From: a virus
Lineage: Duplodnaviria; Heunggongvirae; Uroviricota; Caudoviricetes
Length of the DNA: 7,700 nucleotides
Virus record (IMG/VR): IMGVR_UViG_2529292718_000010
Direction: 5' to 3' (one strand)
Notes under the pieces: generated by a model
The model's input: only the letters and a program-made list of their open reading frames with translations
Told to the model about the DNA's origin: nothing
Database searches by the model: none
Position numbers and translations under genes: made by a program
In this document: in pieces, positions 1 through 7,349 of the stretch
Layout: each line of letters starts with the position of its first letter
Numbering within the stretch: the first letter of the stretch is position 1

Positions 1-851
1 TCCTGCGTGAAGCGCTGTTCCGGTGTCTGCCTGAACTGGCGAAGTTCTCGCCTGTCAGCAACGTCAGCCATCCACTGCTCCAGTAGCTGGTTAACATGGG
101 CGAAGCTGTCGAACCGGCGGTACCGGACGAAGAAGTTTTCCTTGAGGTATTTCACCATCCGTTCAACCTTACCTTTGGTTCTGGCCCTTCGTGGACGGCA
201 GGCCCGTGGCAGGAAGCCATAGTGATCGGCCAGCAGCAGGAACCCGGAGTTGAACACCACCTTCCCATTGTTATTTTTCAGAACTGCGGCTTTCTGGTTA
301 TCGACCAGCACGGTTTTCACGCTACCGCCGAAGTAGCGAAAGGCGCGGACCAGTGACTCATAGGTATGTTCAGCATCCTGCTTTGGTGCCGCGAAGACAT
401 GGAAGCGACGTGAGAACCCCAGCGTATTAACCGCGAAGTTAACCCTGCATCGTTGCCCGGCAACCTCAGCCTCAACTTCTCCCCAGTCATGCTGTAGCTG
501 GTAACCGGGCTGAGTTTCGAAGCGAACCGTTTTCTTCGATGGCCGCATCTTACGTTTGGGCTGGATGTAGTAGCGCAACATGGAACGGCCACCGGTATAA
601 CCCATCGCTTTGATTTCCGCCAGGATGACCTCGCCGTTCCAGACGTTCTCAGCCAGACGCATATCTATATAGTCCATGAACGGCTTGAGTTTGGCCATTT
701 TGTGGCGTGTTTTTCTGGCCGGAGGTTCCGGGTATTTCAGGTACCGTCTGACGGTCCGCTCAGAGCAACCAACCTGAGTGGCAATATCAACAATATACGC
801 ACCTTGCTGGCGCATTTGCTTTATCATGTAAAAATCCTCTCTGCTCAGCAT
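1..851 (-). CDS. istA: IS21-family transposase IstA, N-terminal 283 codons (3' end outside window)
   Basis: Manual minus-strand translation: MLSREDFYMIKQMRQQGAYIVDIATQVGCSERTVRRYLKYPEPPARKTRHKMAKLKPFMDYIDMRLAENVWNGEVILAEIKAMGYTGGRSMLRYYIQPKRKMRPSKKTVRFETQPGYQLQHDWGEVEVAGQRCRVNFAVNTLGFSRRFHVFAAPKQDAEHTYESLVRAFRYFGGSVKTVLVDNQKAAVLKNNNGKVVFNSGFLLLADHYGFLPRACRPRRARTKGKVERMVKYLKENFFVRYRRFDSFAHVNQLLEQWMADVADRRELRQFRQTPEQRFTQ... with no stop. N-terminal HTH followed by a DDE-type core is typical of IstA. Missing from the ORF track only because no stop codon lies in the window. Confidence 0.8.
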   Translation of the reverse strand, partial: MLSREDFYMIKQMRQQGAYIVDIATQVGCSERTVRRYLKYPEPPARKTRHKMAKLKPFMDYIDMRLAENVWNGEVILAEIKAMGYTGGRSMLRYYIQPKRKMRPSKKTVRFETQPGYQLQHDWGEVEAEVAGQRCRVNFAVNTLGFSRRFHVFAAPKQDAEHTYESLVRAFRYFGGSVKTVLVDNQKAAVLKNNNGKVVFNSGFLLLADHYGFLPRACRPRRARTKGKVERMVKYLKENFFVRYRRFDSFAHVNQLLEQWMADVADRRELRQFRQTPEQRFTQ

Positions 852-952
852 GAGTGTTCCCTTTGTGGTGTAGGAACCTTAAGGAAACAACATGTTGGGT
901 GGAGCGGACAATCCAAATGGTGAATTACTGTCTTATATCATTGGCGCTGACA
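1..952 (-). mobile_element. IS21-family insertion sequence, partial (left end plus 5' part of istA); continues beyond window start
   Basis: Minus-strand translation from ATG at 851 is open for 283 codons to the window edge and reads as IstA-like transposase (see istA feature). The non-coding end 852-952 terminates with TGTCAG on the minus strand exactly where integrase homology stops. Outer boundary is approximate (about +/-10 bp). Confidence 0.7.
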
Positions 953-1945
953 TAATGGGACGCCTGACTGAATCAGCCAGCTTGCCCAGGTGTGTCTGAG
1001 GTCATGGAAACGGAAATCTTCAATTCCTGCACGACGACAAGCTGATAGCCATGATGTCTTGCTGTCGATGCGCATCTTCCTGACCGCAGGCGTTGATGTT
1101 CCATCTGCTCGCTTAGCCGCCTTGGTATGTACAAACACCCATTTGTGATGCTTGCCTATTTGATCACGCAACACTTTACAGGCGGTATCGTTCAGCGCCA
1201 CACCAATGGCGCGGTTTGATTTGCTCTCTTCTGGATTCACCCAGGCAACTCGTCGCTGCATGTCGATTTGTTGCCATTCCAGATTTATGATGTTCGACTT
1301 TCTCAGACCAGTTGCCAGCGCAAACTTGACGACAGATTTCAGTGGTTCGGGGCACTCATCAATAAGGCGTTTTGCTTCCTCCTTTTCCAGCCATCTGACT
1401 CGCTTGTTTCTGACCGCTGGTATCTTGATGACAGGCGCTTTTTCCAGCCACTTCCAGTCGCGTTCTGCAGCACGGAGAATGGCCTTTATCATGGCAAGAT
1501 GCTTTGCCTTTGTCTGAGTTGATACTGGCTTTGGTTCATAAACAGGCGGTTCTTTACCTTTCCTGATGGCGGCCTGAACTTTCTGTTTCCATATTTCTTT
1601 CGTCTTTCTGTTATGCATTCTGCTTACAGCAGAGTAAATCTTTGCCTCCGAGATATCTTTAAGCCTTATACCCTCAAAATGTTCAAGCCAGAACTCAATC
1701 CGGCTTTTATCTGAATCGAGAGATTTTTTATCAGCTTTTTCCTCAAGCCATCTTAGGCAGGCCTCTTCAAAAGTGACATCAGGTAAATCCCCTAGCTTTT
1801 CTACTCGCCAGAGTTCTGCTTTTCGCTTGTCGTGCAACTCCTGAGCTTGCCGCTTGTCCTTTGTGCCAAGAGATTCCTTAATTCGTTTCCCGCCCGGGAG
1901 CGAATACGAGGCATACCATATTTCATTTCTGCGGAAGAGTGACAT
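938..1945 (-). pseudogene. intD: Phage tyrosine integrase (DLP12 IntD-like), 3'-truncated by the IS21-family insertion
   Basis: 335-aa ORF with a phage-integrase N-terminus ([34 protein letters not shown]...) and the conserved [18 protein letters not shown] box, then only CQRQ-stop, which is read from IS sequence. The downstream LLGH...Y catalytic tyrosine segment is absent. Strong RBS (AGAGGAAAG) before the ATG at 1945. The intD symbol is by family and context, not verified. Confidence 0.85.
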
Positions 1946-2172
1946 TTTCTTTCCTCTGTTATGCCATCACCCGCGCTCACCTGGACAGTATGCAGCGGAG
2001 ACTGAAGCGCCGCAATGCAGGCTTGCCGTGTTGTGAGGTAAGGAGATTTTGGCTTGGTTGGATCTTTACGTGTTGCCTGTAGGCGGCCTGTTCGTATCCA
2101 GTTGGTGGCGGTTGGTCTGGATATCTTAAGAAACTGACAGGCCTCATCGAGTGTGAGGCTGTATGATTCCAT
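1801..2172 (-). CDS. xis: Excisionase-like protein (lambda Xis-type), 123 codons with an unusually long C-terminal extension
   Basis: ORF-track 133-aa ORF trimmed to the Met with a good RBS (AGAGGT, 5 nt spacing): [31 protein letters not shown]... resembles the lambda Xis N-terminal pattern. Lies immediately upstream of int on the same strand. The 3' end overlaps int by 145 bp. Confidence 0.6.
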
Positions 2173-2422
2173 GGTTACCTCTGCTTTTTGAACGCATGTC
2201 ACGTAACTTCTTAATGTGTTCTGCCGTTTCGATCTCTTCTGCTATCCGATCTGCATCAGCTTTATTCACAGGTTCAAAGTCATGATTAAAGCGGAACATG
2301 CTGGCGATACATGTTCTGCCTTTTCGGATGTAGTGAACTTTGTTGTGGGTAGAACGCAGGATTTTGCAGGGAGTGCCGTGGTGGTCGACGTACCAGGTGT
2401 TAGGCAAAATGATTCTGAACAT
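2144..2422 (-). CDS. Hypothetical small protein (92 aa), first gene of the ORF92-xis-int string
   Basis: ORF MFRIILPNTWYVDHHGTPCKILRSTHNKVHYIRKGRTCIASMFRFNHDFEPVNK... with RBS AGGTG 5-6 nt upstream of the ATG. Overlaps the xis start by 29 bp, consistent with translational coupling. Family not recognised with confidence. Confidence 0.45.
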   Translation of the reverse strand: MFRIILPNTWYVDHHGTPCKILRSTHNKVHYIRKGRTCIASMFRFNHDFEPVNKADADRIAEEIETAEHIKKLRDMRSKSRGNHGIIQPHTR

Positions 2423-2435
2423 TTTTACACCTCAG

Positions 2436-2495
2436 TTGGAAGGTATGGCGAAAACACAGGTTATGTGGCTGAAAGAGGGGATTATTAAGGCGTGA
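2436..2495 (+). pseudogene. ybcO: 3' remnant of a ybcO-like (DUF1364) gene
   Basis: In-frame reading ends ...[19 protein letters not shown]-stop, matching my recollection of the YbcO C-terminus (...LEGMARTQVIWLKEGVIKA). Further upstream in the same frame the sequence is unrelated and hits a stop at 2334-2336. The stop (2493-2495) overlaps the rusA GTG start (GTGA), a typical coupled junction. Confidence 0.4.
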
Positions 2496-2854
2496 ATACC
2501 TACAGTATCACATTCCCCTGGCCTCCGAGCAATAATCGCTATTCCCGCCATAATCGCGGGCGCACGCACGTCAGCGCAGAGGGGCAGGCATACCGCGATA
2601 ACGTCGCCAGAATCATTAAAAACGCAATGCTGGATATCGGCCTGGCTATCCCTGTGAAAATCCGCATTGAGTGCCACATGCCGGATCGCCGTCGCCGTGA
2701 CCTGGATAATCTGCAAAAAGCCGCTTTTGACGCACTCACTAAAGCAGGTTTCTGGCTGGATGATGCTCAGGTCGTTGATTACCGCGTTGTGAAGATGCCT
2801 GTTACCAAAGGTGGGAGGCTGGAACTGACCATCACCGAAATGGGGAATGAATGA
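2492..2854 (+). CDS. rusA: Holliday junction resolvase RusA
   Basis: 120-aa ORF from a GTG start: [120 protein letters not shown], recognised as RusA. Length and position upstream of Q fit the nin region. Confidence 0.9.
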
Positions 2855-2991
2855 TGTTTGAGTTTAATATGGCAGAACTTCTTCGCCACCGCTGGATGCG
2901 CCTGCGCTTATATCGTTTCCCCAGTTCTGTTTTGACCGATTACCGAATACTGAGGAATTACGCCAAAACCCTGACAGGAGCAGGAGTATGA
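2851..2991 (+). CDS. ylcG: Small nin-region protein YlcG-like (46 aa)
   Basis: ATG overlaps the rusA stop (ATGA). Translation [46 protein letters not shown] matches my recollection of DLP12 YlcG. Below the ORF-track size cutoff, so found by hand. Confidence 0.6.
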
Positions 2992-3076
2992 AGTCAGAGA
3001 TAACAATCAACTAATACTGTTTTATTGATTTTTGCTTGTAATTGGCGTTCTGGTCTGATTTTTGTGGAGTAAGTTG

Positions 3077-3460
3077 ATGCGTGATATTCAGATGGTTCTT
3101 GAGCGTTGGGGAGCGTGGGCGGCTAATAATCATGAAGATGTGACCTGGTCGTCCATTGCCGCCGGTTTTAAGGGATTAATTACTTCAAAAGTAAAATCTC
3201 GCCCGCAATGTTGTGACGATGACGCGATGATCATTTGCGGGTGCATGGCCCGTCTGAAAAAGAACAACAGCGATTTGCACGATTTATTAGTAGATTATTA
3301 TGTAGTCGGTATGACATTCATGTCACTGGCAGGTAAGCATTGCTGCTCTGATGGTTATATCGGGAAAAGGTTACAGAAGGCTGAGGGCATAATTGAAGGG
3401 ATGTTAATGGCATTAGATATCCGGTTAGAGATGGATATCGTTGTTAATAACTCTAATTAA
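3077..3460 (+). CDS. quuD: Late-gene antiterminator Q (QuuD-like)
   Basis: ORF-track ORF trimmed to the ATG at 3077 with RBS GGAGTAAG: [64 protein letters not shown]... (127 aa). Cys-rich, and sits between the nin genes and the lysis cassette as in lambdoid phages. Confidence 0.85.
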
Positions 3461-3649: not shown

Positions 3650-4732
3650 TTAGAACTGATACACCAGACCTACAGCGACGATGTCGTCGGTATCAATACC
3701 AGCTGTTTTGGTAAACTTACTATCGTCAATTAAGTTGATTTTGTAATCAACAAAAGTGGACATGTTTTTATTAAAGTAGTAAGTAGCACCGACATCGACA
3801 TACTTGACTAAGTCTCGGTCACCATGAACACCAAGGTCTTTACCTTTTGACTGAAGGTAAGCAACAGATGGTCGCAGACCGAAGTCAAACTGATATTGTG
3901 CTACTGCTTCAAAGTTTTGTGCTTTGTTTGCAATATGGTTATTACCAAAAACGGTCATATTCTGAGTTTCAGAATATGTGGTAGCCAGATAGATATTGTT
4001 CGCATCATATTTCAGGCCTGCAGCCCATACTTCCGCATTTTTGCCGGAGGCATTGAATTTGCTCTTACCATAGGCGACCTGACCGTCAGTGCGATCTGAT
4101 TTAGCATAGGTTGCACCCACGCCGAATCCTTCATACTCATAAGTAGTGGAGAAACCGAAACCATCACCATTGGCTTCAGTTACGTCAGTGCGGTCATTTT
4201 TACCCTGATACTGAGCAGCAAAGTTCAGGCCATCGACCAGACCAAAGAAGTCGTTGTTACGATAGGTTGCAACACCAGTGGTGCGACCAGTCATGAACAC
4301 ATCTGTTTGGGTCCAGGTATCGCCACCGAATTCTGGCAGAACGTCAGTCCACGCACCGATGTCGTATGCTACCCCGTAGTTACGGCCGTAATCGATTGAG
4401 CCGTAGTCACCGAATTTCAGGCCTGCAAATGCAAGACGGGTTTTGTCTTTGGAGGAACCTTGAGATTCAGCGCGGTTGCCTTTGAATTCATATTCCCACT
4501 GACCGAAACCAGTCAGTTGATCGTTGATTTGGGTTTCACCTTTGAAGCCAAGACGGGCATAAGTAGTATCACCATCATCTGCATCGTTAGAGGAAAAGTA
4601 GTGCTTGGCATTAACTTTCCCGTACAGATCCAGCTTGTTACTGTCTTTATTATAAATTTCAGCTGCCTGAGCAGACATCGTCATCAGTACTGATGCAGCT
4701 ACAGCAGAAATTGCCACTGTTAATTTTTTCAT
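3650..4732 (-). CDS. nmpC: Phage-encoded general porin (NmpC/Lc/OmpD-type), apparently intact
   Basis: 360-aa ORF with signal peptide [23 protein letters not shown], a Gly/Tyr/Asp-rich beta-barrel composition and the C-terminal ...VGLVYQF aromatic end typical of outer-membrane porins. Located between Q and the holin on the opposite strand, as in DLP12/PA-2. Confidence 0.9.
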
Positions 4733-7326: not shown

Positions 7327-7349
7327 GGTAATGACTCCAACTTATTGAT
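7327..7349. repeat. IS1 terminal inverted repeat
   Basis: GGTAATGACTCCAACTTATTGAT matches the canonical IS1 end sequence. Confidence 0.85.

What the first reader, a model, noticed from the sequence alone, without database searches (positions are those of the whole stretch)
2144..2422. Unassigned 92-aa ORF heading the ORF92-xis-int string
The ORF has a good RBS, an ATG start and a 29-bp coupled overlap with xis, so it looks like a real gene. I cannot place it in a family with confidence; its Trp/Tyr/His- and Cys-containing N-terminal half (TWYVDHHGTPCKILR...YIRKGRTC) is reminiscent of small integrase-adjacent prophage proteins. It may be an accessory factor of the excision module or a moron.
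Basis: inference. Interest (0 to 1): 0.45.

Follow-up and report, generated by a model that had tools for sequence, protein, structure and literature searches.

The report
Stranded DUF4222 (RgdR-family) prophage gene
The 92-codon ORF is a real, conserved phage gene of the catalogued but poorly understood DUF4222/RgdR family of small proteins, left behind in a decayed DLP12-like prophage, so it is an ordinary find whose biochemical function is still unknown.

Summary
An intact 92-codon ORF lies on the minus strand at 2144-2422, with ATG, a GAGGTG RBS and a 29-bp overlap with the xis start.

It is not unassignable. It hits Pfam DUF4222 (69.6 bits against a cut-off of 27) and phrog_285. It is 99-100% identical to phage phi458 and SfI gp30, and is present in about 43% of complete E. 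coli genomes, annotated 'DUF4222 domain-containing protein'. The frame is under purifying selection (median dN/dS 0.17), and all 30 homologues examined are intact.

The only characterised relative is RgdR of EHEC, a pleiotropic transcription modulator (24% identity; its RGD motif is absent here).

Across diverse loci the gene usually lies near the xis-proximal end of the early-left 'exo-xis' block. It usually follows a TraR/Orf73-like zinc-finger gene and precedes three unrelated types of excisionase. It is therefore not tied to the excision machinery.

Most likely it is a small host-directed transcription modulator; this is inferred, not shown.

In this window it is stranded: its operon and promoter are deleted and int is cut by an IS. 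Catalogued gene, low interest.

The parts
2144..2422 (-). ORF92 coding sequence (92 aa plus TGA), DUF4222 family
   Evidence: 99-100% identical to phage phi458 and SfI gp30
2428..2433 (-). Shine-Dalgarno GAGGTG, 5 nt before the ATG
   Evidence: SD-like motifs precede the start in most homologues
2264..2416 (-). Codons 3-53: DUF4222 domain, predicted five-stranded SH3/Tudor-like beta-barrel
   Evidence: Pfam residues 3-53; AF2 strands 10-12, 18-24, 28-33, 36-41 and 50-52, pLDDT about 90
2180..2263 (-). Codons 54-81: predicted long alpha-helix with a conserved EHIKKLRxMR stretch, not covered by the Pfam model
   Evidence: AF2 helix 54-81; I60, H69, L73 and R74 invariant in the subfamily; aligns with the RgdR C-terminal helix
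2147..2191 (-). Codons 78-92: module-specific, low-confidence tail that carries the xis RBS and start
   Evidence: similarity to phage 21 ends at window 2193; 79-, 92- and 104-aa tail variants; pLDDT about 52-55
2177..2182 (-). xis Shine-Dalgarno AGAGGT inside the ORF92 tail
1801..2172 (-). xis (123-aa ORF, HTH_17 / phrog_2907 excisionase), overlaps ORF92 by 29 bp and int by 145 bp
938..1945 (-). intD integrase truncated at codon 335 of 387 by an IS insertion
2437..2440 (.). Deletion junction (4-bp overlap of the two homologies). The left side is SfI-like ORF92 upstream sequence; the right side is the 3' end of DLP12 ybcO, 52 bp before rusA
   Evidence: blastn against SfI ends at 2440; blastn against K-12 DLP12 resumes at 2437
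1..951 (.). End of the IS21-like element ISEc62 that interrupts intD
   Evidence: DLP12 homology starts at 952

Best explanation
ORF92 is an intact copy of a lambdoid-phage accessory gene of the DUF4222 (PF13973) / phrog_285 family, the family whose only studied member is RgdR.

In functional phages it usually lies near the xis-proximal end of the early-left (pL) 'exo-xis' block. It usually comes 0-0.5 kb after a TraR/Orf73-like zinc-finger gene and just before whichever xis-int module the phage carries.

The protein is predicted to be a small basic SH3/Tudor-like beta-barrel followed by a conserved amphipathic helix. The last 15 residues are a disordered read-through into the xis module.

Most likely it is a host-directed modulator of transcription, acting like RgdR through protein-protein contacts (RNA polymerase or a nucleoid protein such as H-NS/Ler) and/or weak non-specific DNA binding. 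It is not part of the excision machinery.

Shown: gene reality, family membership, synteny, mosaicism, purifying selection, predicted fold.
Inferred: the molecular activity and its target.

In this window the gene is a stranded remnant. Its operon and pL promoter are deleted, no promoter-like site lies upstream, and int is inactivated by an IS.
For: Family:
- Pfam DUF4222 at 1.7e-19 and 69.6 bits against a cut-off of 27; phrog_285 at 7.7e-38 over its full length.
- RgdR itself is DUF4222. hhalign of the ORF92 subfamily against the RgdR subfamily gives probability 89.9% and E 1.7e-6 over 75 columns, including the helix.

Reality of the gene:
- All 30 homologues have intact frames.
- NG86 dN/dS has a median of 0.17, and every informative pair is below 0.5.
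- The antisense frame is broken in 19 of 28 homologues.
- The gene is present in 2357 of 5426 complete E. coli genomes and in 59 phage records.

Synteny:
- An integrase lies on the same strand 0.2-2 kb downstream in 25 of 30 diverse loci.
- A TraR/DksA zinc-finger gene lies upstream in 21 of 30 diverse loci and in 77 of 80 IMG/VR loci.
- Three unrelated xis types follow the gene.

Fold:
- The AF2 model has pLDDT 80.6 and shows a barrel plus a helix. The RgdR model has the same architecture.

RgdR biology (PMC3378721):
- It activates LEE1, represses motility and raises Congo-red binding.
- It binds DNA weakly and non-specifically.

Context: exo-xis proteins have been proposed to act on transcription and RNAP, for example Orf73 as a TraR-like protein (PMC8614690; PMC9239242).
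Against: - Only 24% identity to RgdR, and the functionally important RGD motif aligns to P7-N8-T9.
- The RgdR phenotypes come from a different genomic context (a P4-like/PICI element, next to a primase).
- There is no sequence-level link to any solved structure.
- There are no expression data, and no promoter-like site upstream in this window.
Confidence: 0.55

Rival explanations
1. Accessory factor of the excision module: a cofactor or regulator of Xis/Int, translationally coupled to xis through the 29-bp overlap.
For: - It is adjacent to, and co-oriented with, xis-int in most loci.
- The xis RBS and start lie inside its 3' end.
- ORF92 and the 5' part of xis are about 100% identical to SfI as one block.
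- One phage record labels the homologue 'excisionase' (H22).
Against: - It has no excisionase or HTH family hit.
- It is found upstream of three unrelated xis families.
- A mosaic junction lies at about codon 77, and phage 21 has a 139-bp gap before xis.
- Unrelated genes (a dATP/dGTP pyrophosphohydrolase, DUF7694) intervene in many loci.
- RgdR-type members sit next to a primase, not next to xis.
Confidence: 0.07
2. Lysogen-expressed moron: a host fitness or virulence regulator expressed from the prophage independently of pL and kept in this remnant by selection on the host.
For: - RgdR is active from a cryptic element and affects colonisation (PMC3378721).
- ORF92 is intact although the rest of its operon is gone.
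- It is widespread in E. coli.
Against: - No sigma-70-like promoter was found upstream on its strand.
- Its native position and orientation are those of a pL-operon gene, with only a 47-bp gap after the preceding gene.
- Intactness here can be explained by recent decay, since the sequence is 99.7% identical to SfI.
- K-12 and E. coli B have lost or truncated it.
Confidence: 0.15
3. Anti-defence, superinfection-exclusion or antitoxin-like small protein, of the kind often found in variable accessory regions of temperate phages.
For: - It sits in the variable part of the exo-xis block (PMC8614690).
- It has many uncharacterised small phage-protein structural neighbours.
Against: - No PADLOC hit.
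- No conserved partner gene apart from the TraR-like gene.
- The VapX similarity is no better than dozens of other small barrels.
Confidence: 0.1
4. Not a gene: a chance ORF in a decayed prophage.
For: ORFs of similar length occur by chance in this window, and PGAP calls a shorter 71-aa version in one genome.
Against: Strong family hits, frames conserved across genera, dN/dS of 0.17, and a conserved RBS.
Confidence: 0.02

Closest known systems
SfI gp30 / phage phi458 and ev243 'DUF4222 domain-containing protein' (92 aa)
   Same: 99-100% identical protein. Same 29-bp overlap with an HTH_17-type xis and the same RBS.
   Different: In those phages the gene is preceded by a DksA/TraR-like gene and the full early-left operon. 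Here that is deleted and the gene abuts rusA.
Phage 21 CPT_21_36 and the 79-aa DUF4222 proteins of Enterobacter, Citrobacter, Salmonella and Klebsiella prophages
   Same: Same domain and helix (86% down to 44% identity over residues 1-79) and the same position at the end of the exo-xis block.
   Different: They end at codon 79. They are followed by a lambda-type or DUF1233-type xis, or by other genes, and do not overlap xis.
RgdR (ECs1581, EHEC O157:H7 OI-51/Sp7; Flockhart et al. 2012, PMC3378721)
   Same: Same Pfam family, same predicted barrel plus C-terminal helix, small and basic (pI 9.9 versus 10.1).
   Different: 24% identity. It has an extra 13-residue N-terminus, and its RGD motif corresponds to PNT in ORF92. 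It is located before the primase of a P4-like/PICI element. Regulatory phenotypes have been tested only for RgdR.
RNA-polymerase-interacting Tudor-like domains of UvrD/PcrA and CarD
   Different: No detectable sequence similarity (2-11% identity). They are domains of larger proteins, and many other small barrels score almost as well.
Lambda Ea8.5 / Orf55 (genes between ea22 and xis in lambda)
   Same: Positional analogues: small non-essential proteins encoded just upstream of xis in the pL operon (PMC8614690).
   Different: Unrelated folds. Ea8.5 is a homeodomain/zinc-finger hybrid and Orf55 is modelled as T7 Gp2-like. There is no sequence similarity.

Membership tests
Pfam DUF4222 (PF13973) / PHROG 285 | Score above the Pfam gathering threshold over the whole domain model | tested here: met
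   69.6 bits against 27; residues 3-53 match model positions 1-53 of 53. phrog_285 at 7.7e-38 covers positions 1-82 of 83.
Pfam DUF4222 (PF13973) / PHROG 285 | Family-invariant residues present (Y11, D13, G16, I21, Y31, R33, G35, F45, F49) | tested here: met
   They are invariant or nearly invariant in the 45-sequence alignment that includes the RgdR-type members.
Pfam DUF4222 (PF13973) / PHROG 285 | Shared predicted architecture: five-stranded barrel plus C-terminal helix | tested here: met
   ORF92 model and RgdR-type model.
RgdR orthologue (functional LEE/T3SS activator) | High identity over the full 99 aa (orthologues in the paper share more than 77%) | tested here: not met
   24% identity over 75 residues; criterion taken from PMC3378721.
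RgdR orthologue (functional LEE/T3SS activator) | RGD motif at residues 20-22 | tested here: not met
   It aligns to P7-N8-T9 of ORF92.
RgdR orthologue (functional LEE/T3SS activator) | Location in a P4-like/PICI element directly upstream of the primase gene | tested here: not met
   ECs_1581 overlaps the start of the DUF927 primase gene in Sp7. ORF92 lies upstream of xis in a lambdoid prophage.
RgdR orthologue (functional LEE/T3SS activator) | Activates LEE1, represses motility, binds DNA non-specifically | not testable with these tools
   Needs experiments.
Excisionase / recombination directionality factor | Winged-helix or HTH excisionase domain (PF12728, PF07825, PF06806, TIGR01764) | tested here: not met
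   No such hit for ORF92. The neighbouring ORF 1801-2172 carries the HTH_17 domain instead.
Excisionase / recombination directionality factor | Co-inheritance with a particular int/xis type | tested here: not met
   It is found with three unrelated xis families and two integrase clusters, and the mosaic junction lies at about codon 77.
RNAP-interacting Tudor-like domain (UvrD/PcrA CTD, CarD RID) | Tudor/SH3-like five-stranded barrel | tested here: met
RNAP-interacting Tudor-like domain (UvrD/PcrA CTD, CarD RID) | Detectable sequence homology | tested here: not met
   A profile search of PDB sequences found nothing below E 0.1. Foldseek found nothing at E <= 0.001.
RNAP-interacting Tudor-like domain (UvrD/PcrA CTD, CarD RID) | Binds the RNAP beta subunit | not testable with these tools
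   Complex prediction with RpoB could not be submitted; pull-down or two-hybrid assays are needed.

The most novel reading that the evidence does not exclude
DUF4222 proteins are a phage and PICI family of free-standing Tudor-like RNA-polymerase-binding (or H-NS/Ler-antagonising) factors. In lambdoid phages they work alongside the adjacent TraR/Orf73-like secondary-channel binder to reprogram host transcription early after induction. This would explain RgdR's hns-mutant-like pleiotropy (LEE up, motility down, Congo-red binding up).
Probability: 0.15. Interest if true: 0.55.

Novelty: already known. Interest (0 to 1): 0.22.

Why it matters
For annotation, the ORF can simply be labelled 'DUF4222 family protein (RgdR family)'. 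The full 92-codon start should be used rather than the 71-codon PGAP call.

Biologically, the family is common: it is found in about 43% of complete E. coli genomes. Yet it has one studied member and no mechanism. Three observations give a concrete, testable hypothesis for a widespread class of small phage proteins and for the EHEC virulence regulator RgdR:
- the predicted Tudor-like barrel plus helix;
- the best structural matches to RNAP-binding Tudor domains;
- the conserved pairing with a TraR/Orf73-like gene.

Nothing in this particular window adds beyond that, because the copy here is a promoter-less remnant.

Tried and rejected
- NCBIfam and PADLOC gave no hit for ORF92.
- A profile search of PDB sequences gave only chance-level matches, to retinoic acid receptor at E >= 0.13.
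- Foldseek against the PDB found nothing at E <= 0.001. Foldseek against BFVD returned almost only uncharacterised small phage barrels. The afdb50 library was unavailable.
- A literature search for phrog_285 found nothing. Papers after 2012 add no mechanism for RgdR.
- The first genome-contig scan with the mixed alignment failed for lack of a conserved block and was repeated with the subfamily alignment.
- The viral-contig scan returned only 98-100% identical copies. These were useful for synteny but not for dN/dS.
- Zinc or metal binding through Cys/His was considered and rejected, because the residues are not conserved across the family.
- The antisense ORF that PGAP annotates (window 2282-2488, plus strand) was considered as the real gene and rejected, because it has stops in 19 of 28 homologues.
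- The promoter scan found nothing on the minus strand upstream of the ORF.

Full report
**Context of the window**

The window is a decayed DLP12-like lambdoid prophage of E. coli. It matches 39 complete E. coli genomes over at least 80% of its length. The annotated features there are intD, rusA, ylcG, quuD, an ompC/nmpC-like porin, essD, rrrD, rzpD and iss/borD.
- Bases 1-951 are the end of an IS21-like element (ISEc62). It interrupts intD and leaves a 335-codon Int instead of 387.
- An IS1 begins near 7327.

**The observation**

On the minus strand an ORF runs from ATG 2422 to TGA 2144 and encodes 92 aa.
- GAGGTG (2428-2433) lies 5 nt upstream of the ATG.
- The next ORF downstream on the same strand is an HTH_17 / phrog_2907 excisionase. 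It starts at ATG 2172, the start annotated in phage SfI, behind AGAGGT (2177-2182). The two ORFs therefore overlap by 29 bp.

The description is accurate. ORF length by itself is not significant, because spurious ORFs of 90-103 aa occur elsewhere in the window.

**Is it a gene?**

Yes, on several lines of evidence.
- It scores 69.6 bits against Pfam DUF4222 (cut-off 27) over the whole domain model, and 7.7e-38 against phrog_285 over its full length.
- tblastn finds it in 59 phage records. It is 100% identical in phi458, 98.9% in SfI (gp30) and ev243, 86% in phage 21, about 74% in HK639 and Enterobacter phages, about 70% in Salmonella phages, and 37-45% in Klebsiella and Stx phages.
- Megablast finds it in 2357 of 5426 complete E. 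coli genomes, annotated 'DUF4222 domain-containing protein'.
- A species-level genome scan found 26 loci with clear relatives, nearly all in Enterobacteriaceae (two are in MAGs assigned elsewhere).
- An exhaustive HMM search of 1.84 billion representatives found only 121 clusters, so the family is narrow.
- In all 30 diverse homologous loci the frame is intact, usually with ATG and an SD-like motif.
- Pairwise NG86 dN/dS over codons 1-77 has a median of 0.17, and every informative pair is below 0.5.
- The antisense frame, which PGAP annotates as a hypothetical protein in one genome, carries stops in 19 of 28 homologues.

**Native context**

In SfI, phage 21, BP-4795 and a Klebsiella phage, the gene is the last or near-last gene of the early-left operon (the 'exo-xis' block), just before xis-int.

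Clustering of neighbouring ORFs in the 30 diverse loci, with Pfam checks of representatives, gave the following:
- An integrase on the same strand 0.2-2 kb downstream in 25 of 30 loci.
- A TraR/DksA-type zinc-finger gene (PF01258) 0-475 bp upstream in 21 of 30 loci.
- Three unrelated kinds of excisionase downstream: the HTH_17 type in 6 loci, DUF1233 in 20, and lambda Exc (PF07825) in phage 21.
- Frequent intervening genes: a dATP/dGTP pyrophosphohydrolase, DUF7694, and NinX-like or methyltransferase genes on the upstream side.

Among 80 near-identical IMG/VR loci, 77 have the TraR-like gene ending 47 bp upstream.

**Mosaicism**

- Similarity to phage 21 stops at window 2193, at about codon 77.
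- Family members come in three lengths: 79 aa (ending ...LRAMRAA), 92 aa and 104 aa. The extra residues are read-through into the next module. The 104-aa form overlaps a DUF7694 gene by 82 bp.
- Against SfI, the window is about 100% identical from 2440 to about 2091, 90-96% identical down to about 1941, and only 50-84% identical through int.

The 29-bp overlap with xis is therefore a property of one module combination. It is not a conserved coupling, and the gene does not co-vary with the recombination module. This argues against a role in the excision machinery.

**State of the gene in this window**

- blastn against SfI ends at 2440, 18 bp upstream of the ATG. blastn against K-12 DLP12 resumes at 2437, in the 3' end of ybcO, 52 bp before rusA.
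- A deletion has therefore removed the entire early-left, immunity and replication regions. This is why the ORF appears to head the string.
- No sigma-70-like promoter is predicted upstream on its strand.
- K-12 itself has lost the gene; its xisD pseudogene ends at the equivalent of window 2040.
- E. coli B carries a deletion fusion, 'ybl17', that joins another exo-xis gene to codons 21-92.
- With Int truncated before its C-terminal region, the excision module here is dead in any case.

**Predicted structure**

The AlphaFold2 model, built on a 45-sequence alignment spanning both subfamilies, has mean pLDDT 80.6.
- Residues 10-52 form five strands (pLDDT about 90) with a short helix at 42-48.
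- A long helix spans 54-81 (pLDDT about 74).
- The tail is low-confidence.

An RgdR-type protein gives the same architecture. The helix is not part of the Pfam model, yet it holds subfamily-invariant residues (I60, H69, L73, R74) and aligns with the RgdR helix in hhalign.

Structural comparisons:
- Foldseek finds nothing significant. It lists the same kind of small barrels: TnsB, PWWP, Spt5 KOW, the HIV integrase C-terminal domain, RapA and the UvrD C-terminal domain.
- BFVD returns mostly uncharacterised phage proteins.

The fold assignment (SH3/Tudor-like small barrel) is solid. The specific partner is not.

**What is known about the family**

RgdR (ECs1581) of EHEC O157:H7 is stated to contain a DUF4222 domain (PMC10877973). 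I confirmed this at 2.1e-23.

According to Flockhart et al. (PMC3378721):
- RgdR is 99 aa with pI 10.09.
- It activates the LEE1 promoter and type III secretion, represses motility and increases Congo-red binding.
- It binds DNA weakly and non-specifically.
- It was proposed to act as a co-factor with other regulators, or to interfere with Ler autorepression.
- H-NS was not tested.

It is encoded in E. coli PICIs (PMC6092414). In Sakai Sp7 it lies immediately before the DUF927 primase gene.

ORF92 is only 24% identical to RgdR (BLASTP E 4e-6; hhalign probability 89.9%). The RGD motif aligns to P7-N8-T9. ORF92 is a family member but not an RgdR orthologue.

**Most likely mechanism (inference)**

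I think ORF92 is most likely a small, basic host-directed modulator of transcription, made early from pL. The barrel and/or helix would contact RNA polymerase or a nucleoid protein, possibly with weak DNA binding. Support comes from four sources:
- RgdR's phenotypes.
- The structural neighbours of the predicted barrel.
- The conserved pairing with a TraR/Orf73-like gene. TraR homologues, including lambda Orf73, bind RNAP and reprogram host transcription (PMC9239242).
- The published suggestion that exo-xis proteins act on transcription and RNAP (PMC8614690).

From my own knowledge, hns mutants are non-motile and derepress both LEE and curli. RgdR's phenotype resembles H-NS antagonism, but this is untested.

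Likelihoods:
- About 0.97 that this is a real DUF4222 gene.
- About 0.45-0.5 that the family acts on transcription.
- About 0.15 that the target is RNAP or H-NS, as in the novel reading.

**Verdict**

The finding is real but ordinary. The identical protein is already catalogued (Pfam DUF4222; SfI gp30; RefSeq 'DUF4222 domain-containing protein'). The 'excision accessory' reading is not supported. The function remains inferred. The copy in this window is a promoter-less leftover.

Noticed in passing
window 1-951 and 938-1945: The end of an IS21-like element (ISEc62, istA side) is inserted in intD. It truncates the integrase at codon 335 of 387, so the prophage remnant cannot excise.
   Followed up: partly
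window 2437-2440: Deletion junction with 4 bp shared between the two flanks. It joins the ORF92 RBS region to the 3' end of ybcO just before rusA. The whole early-left, immunity and replication part of the DLP12-type prophage is missing.
   Followed up: yes
window 2282-2488 (+) and L001 4156-4537: RefSeq/PGAP for strain 99-3165 does three things: it calls the DUF4222 gene from an internal start (71 aa), annotates an antisense 'hypothetical protein', and marks xis as a short pseudogene fragment. The antisense frame has stops in 19 of 28 homologues, and the 123-aa xis ORF matches phrog_2907 over its full length. These calls look like annotation artefacts.
   Followed up: partly
P0017 (E. coli B 'ybl17', 132 aa): A different deletion in E. 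coli B-type DLP12 fuses the first ~60 residues of an upstream exo-xis gene (similar to the SfI L002 3283-3636 product) to ORF92 codons 21-92.
   Followed up: no
L090, L091, L096, L101 around 4233-4574: 104-aa (95-aa in L096) DUF4222 variants overlap a downstream DUF7694 gene (113 aa) by 55-82 bp. Database entries P0127 and P0122 are apparent fusions of DUF4222 with downstream sequence.
   Followed up: partly
L002 3735-3953; 77 of 80 IMG/VR loci (L008-L087); 21 of 30 diverse loci: A TraR/DksA-type zinc-finger gene (a lambda Orf73 analogue) is a conserved upstream neighbour of the DUF4222 gene. P0121 is an apparent read-through fusion of the two.
   Followed up: partly
P0347 (304 aa) from the representative search: One protein matches the DUF4222 profile in four separate stretches, so it may be a tandem-repeat version of the domain.
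   Followed up: no
window 3650-4732 (-): The nmpC/ompC-like porin gene is intact (360 aa) here, whereas in K-12 DLP12 it is interrupted by IS5.
   Followed up: no
window 1941-2440 versus 947-1940: ORF92 plus the 5' two-thirds of xis are 90-100% identical to phage SfI, while int is only 50-84% identical to SfI but 99.8% identical to K-12 intD. A recombination boundary therefore lies near the int start.
   Followed up: partly
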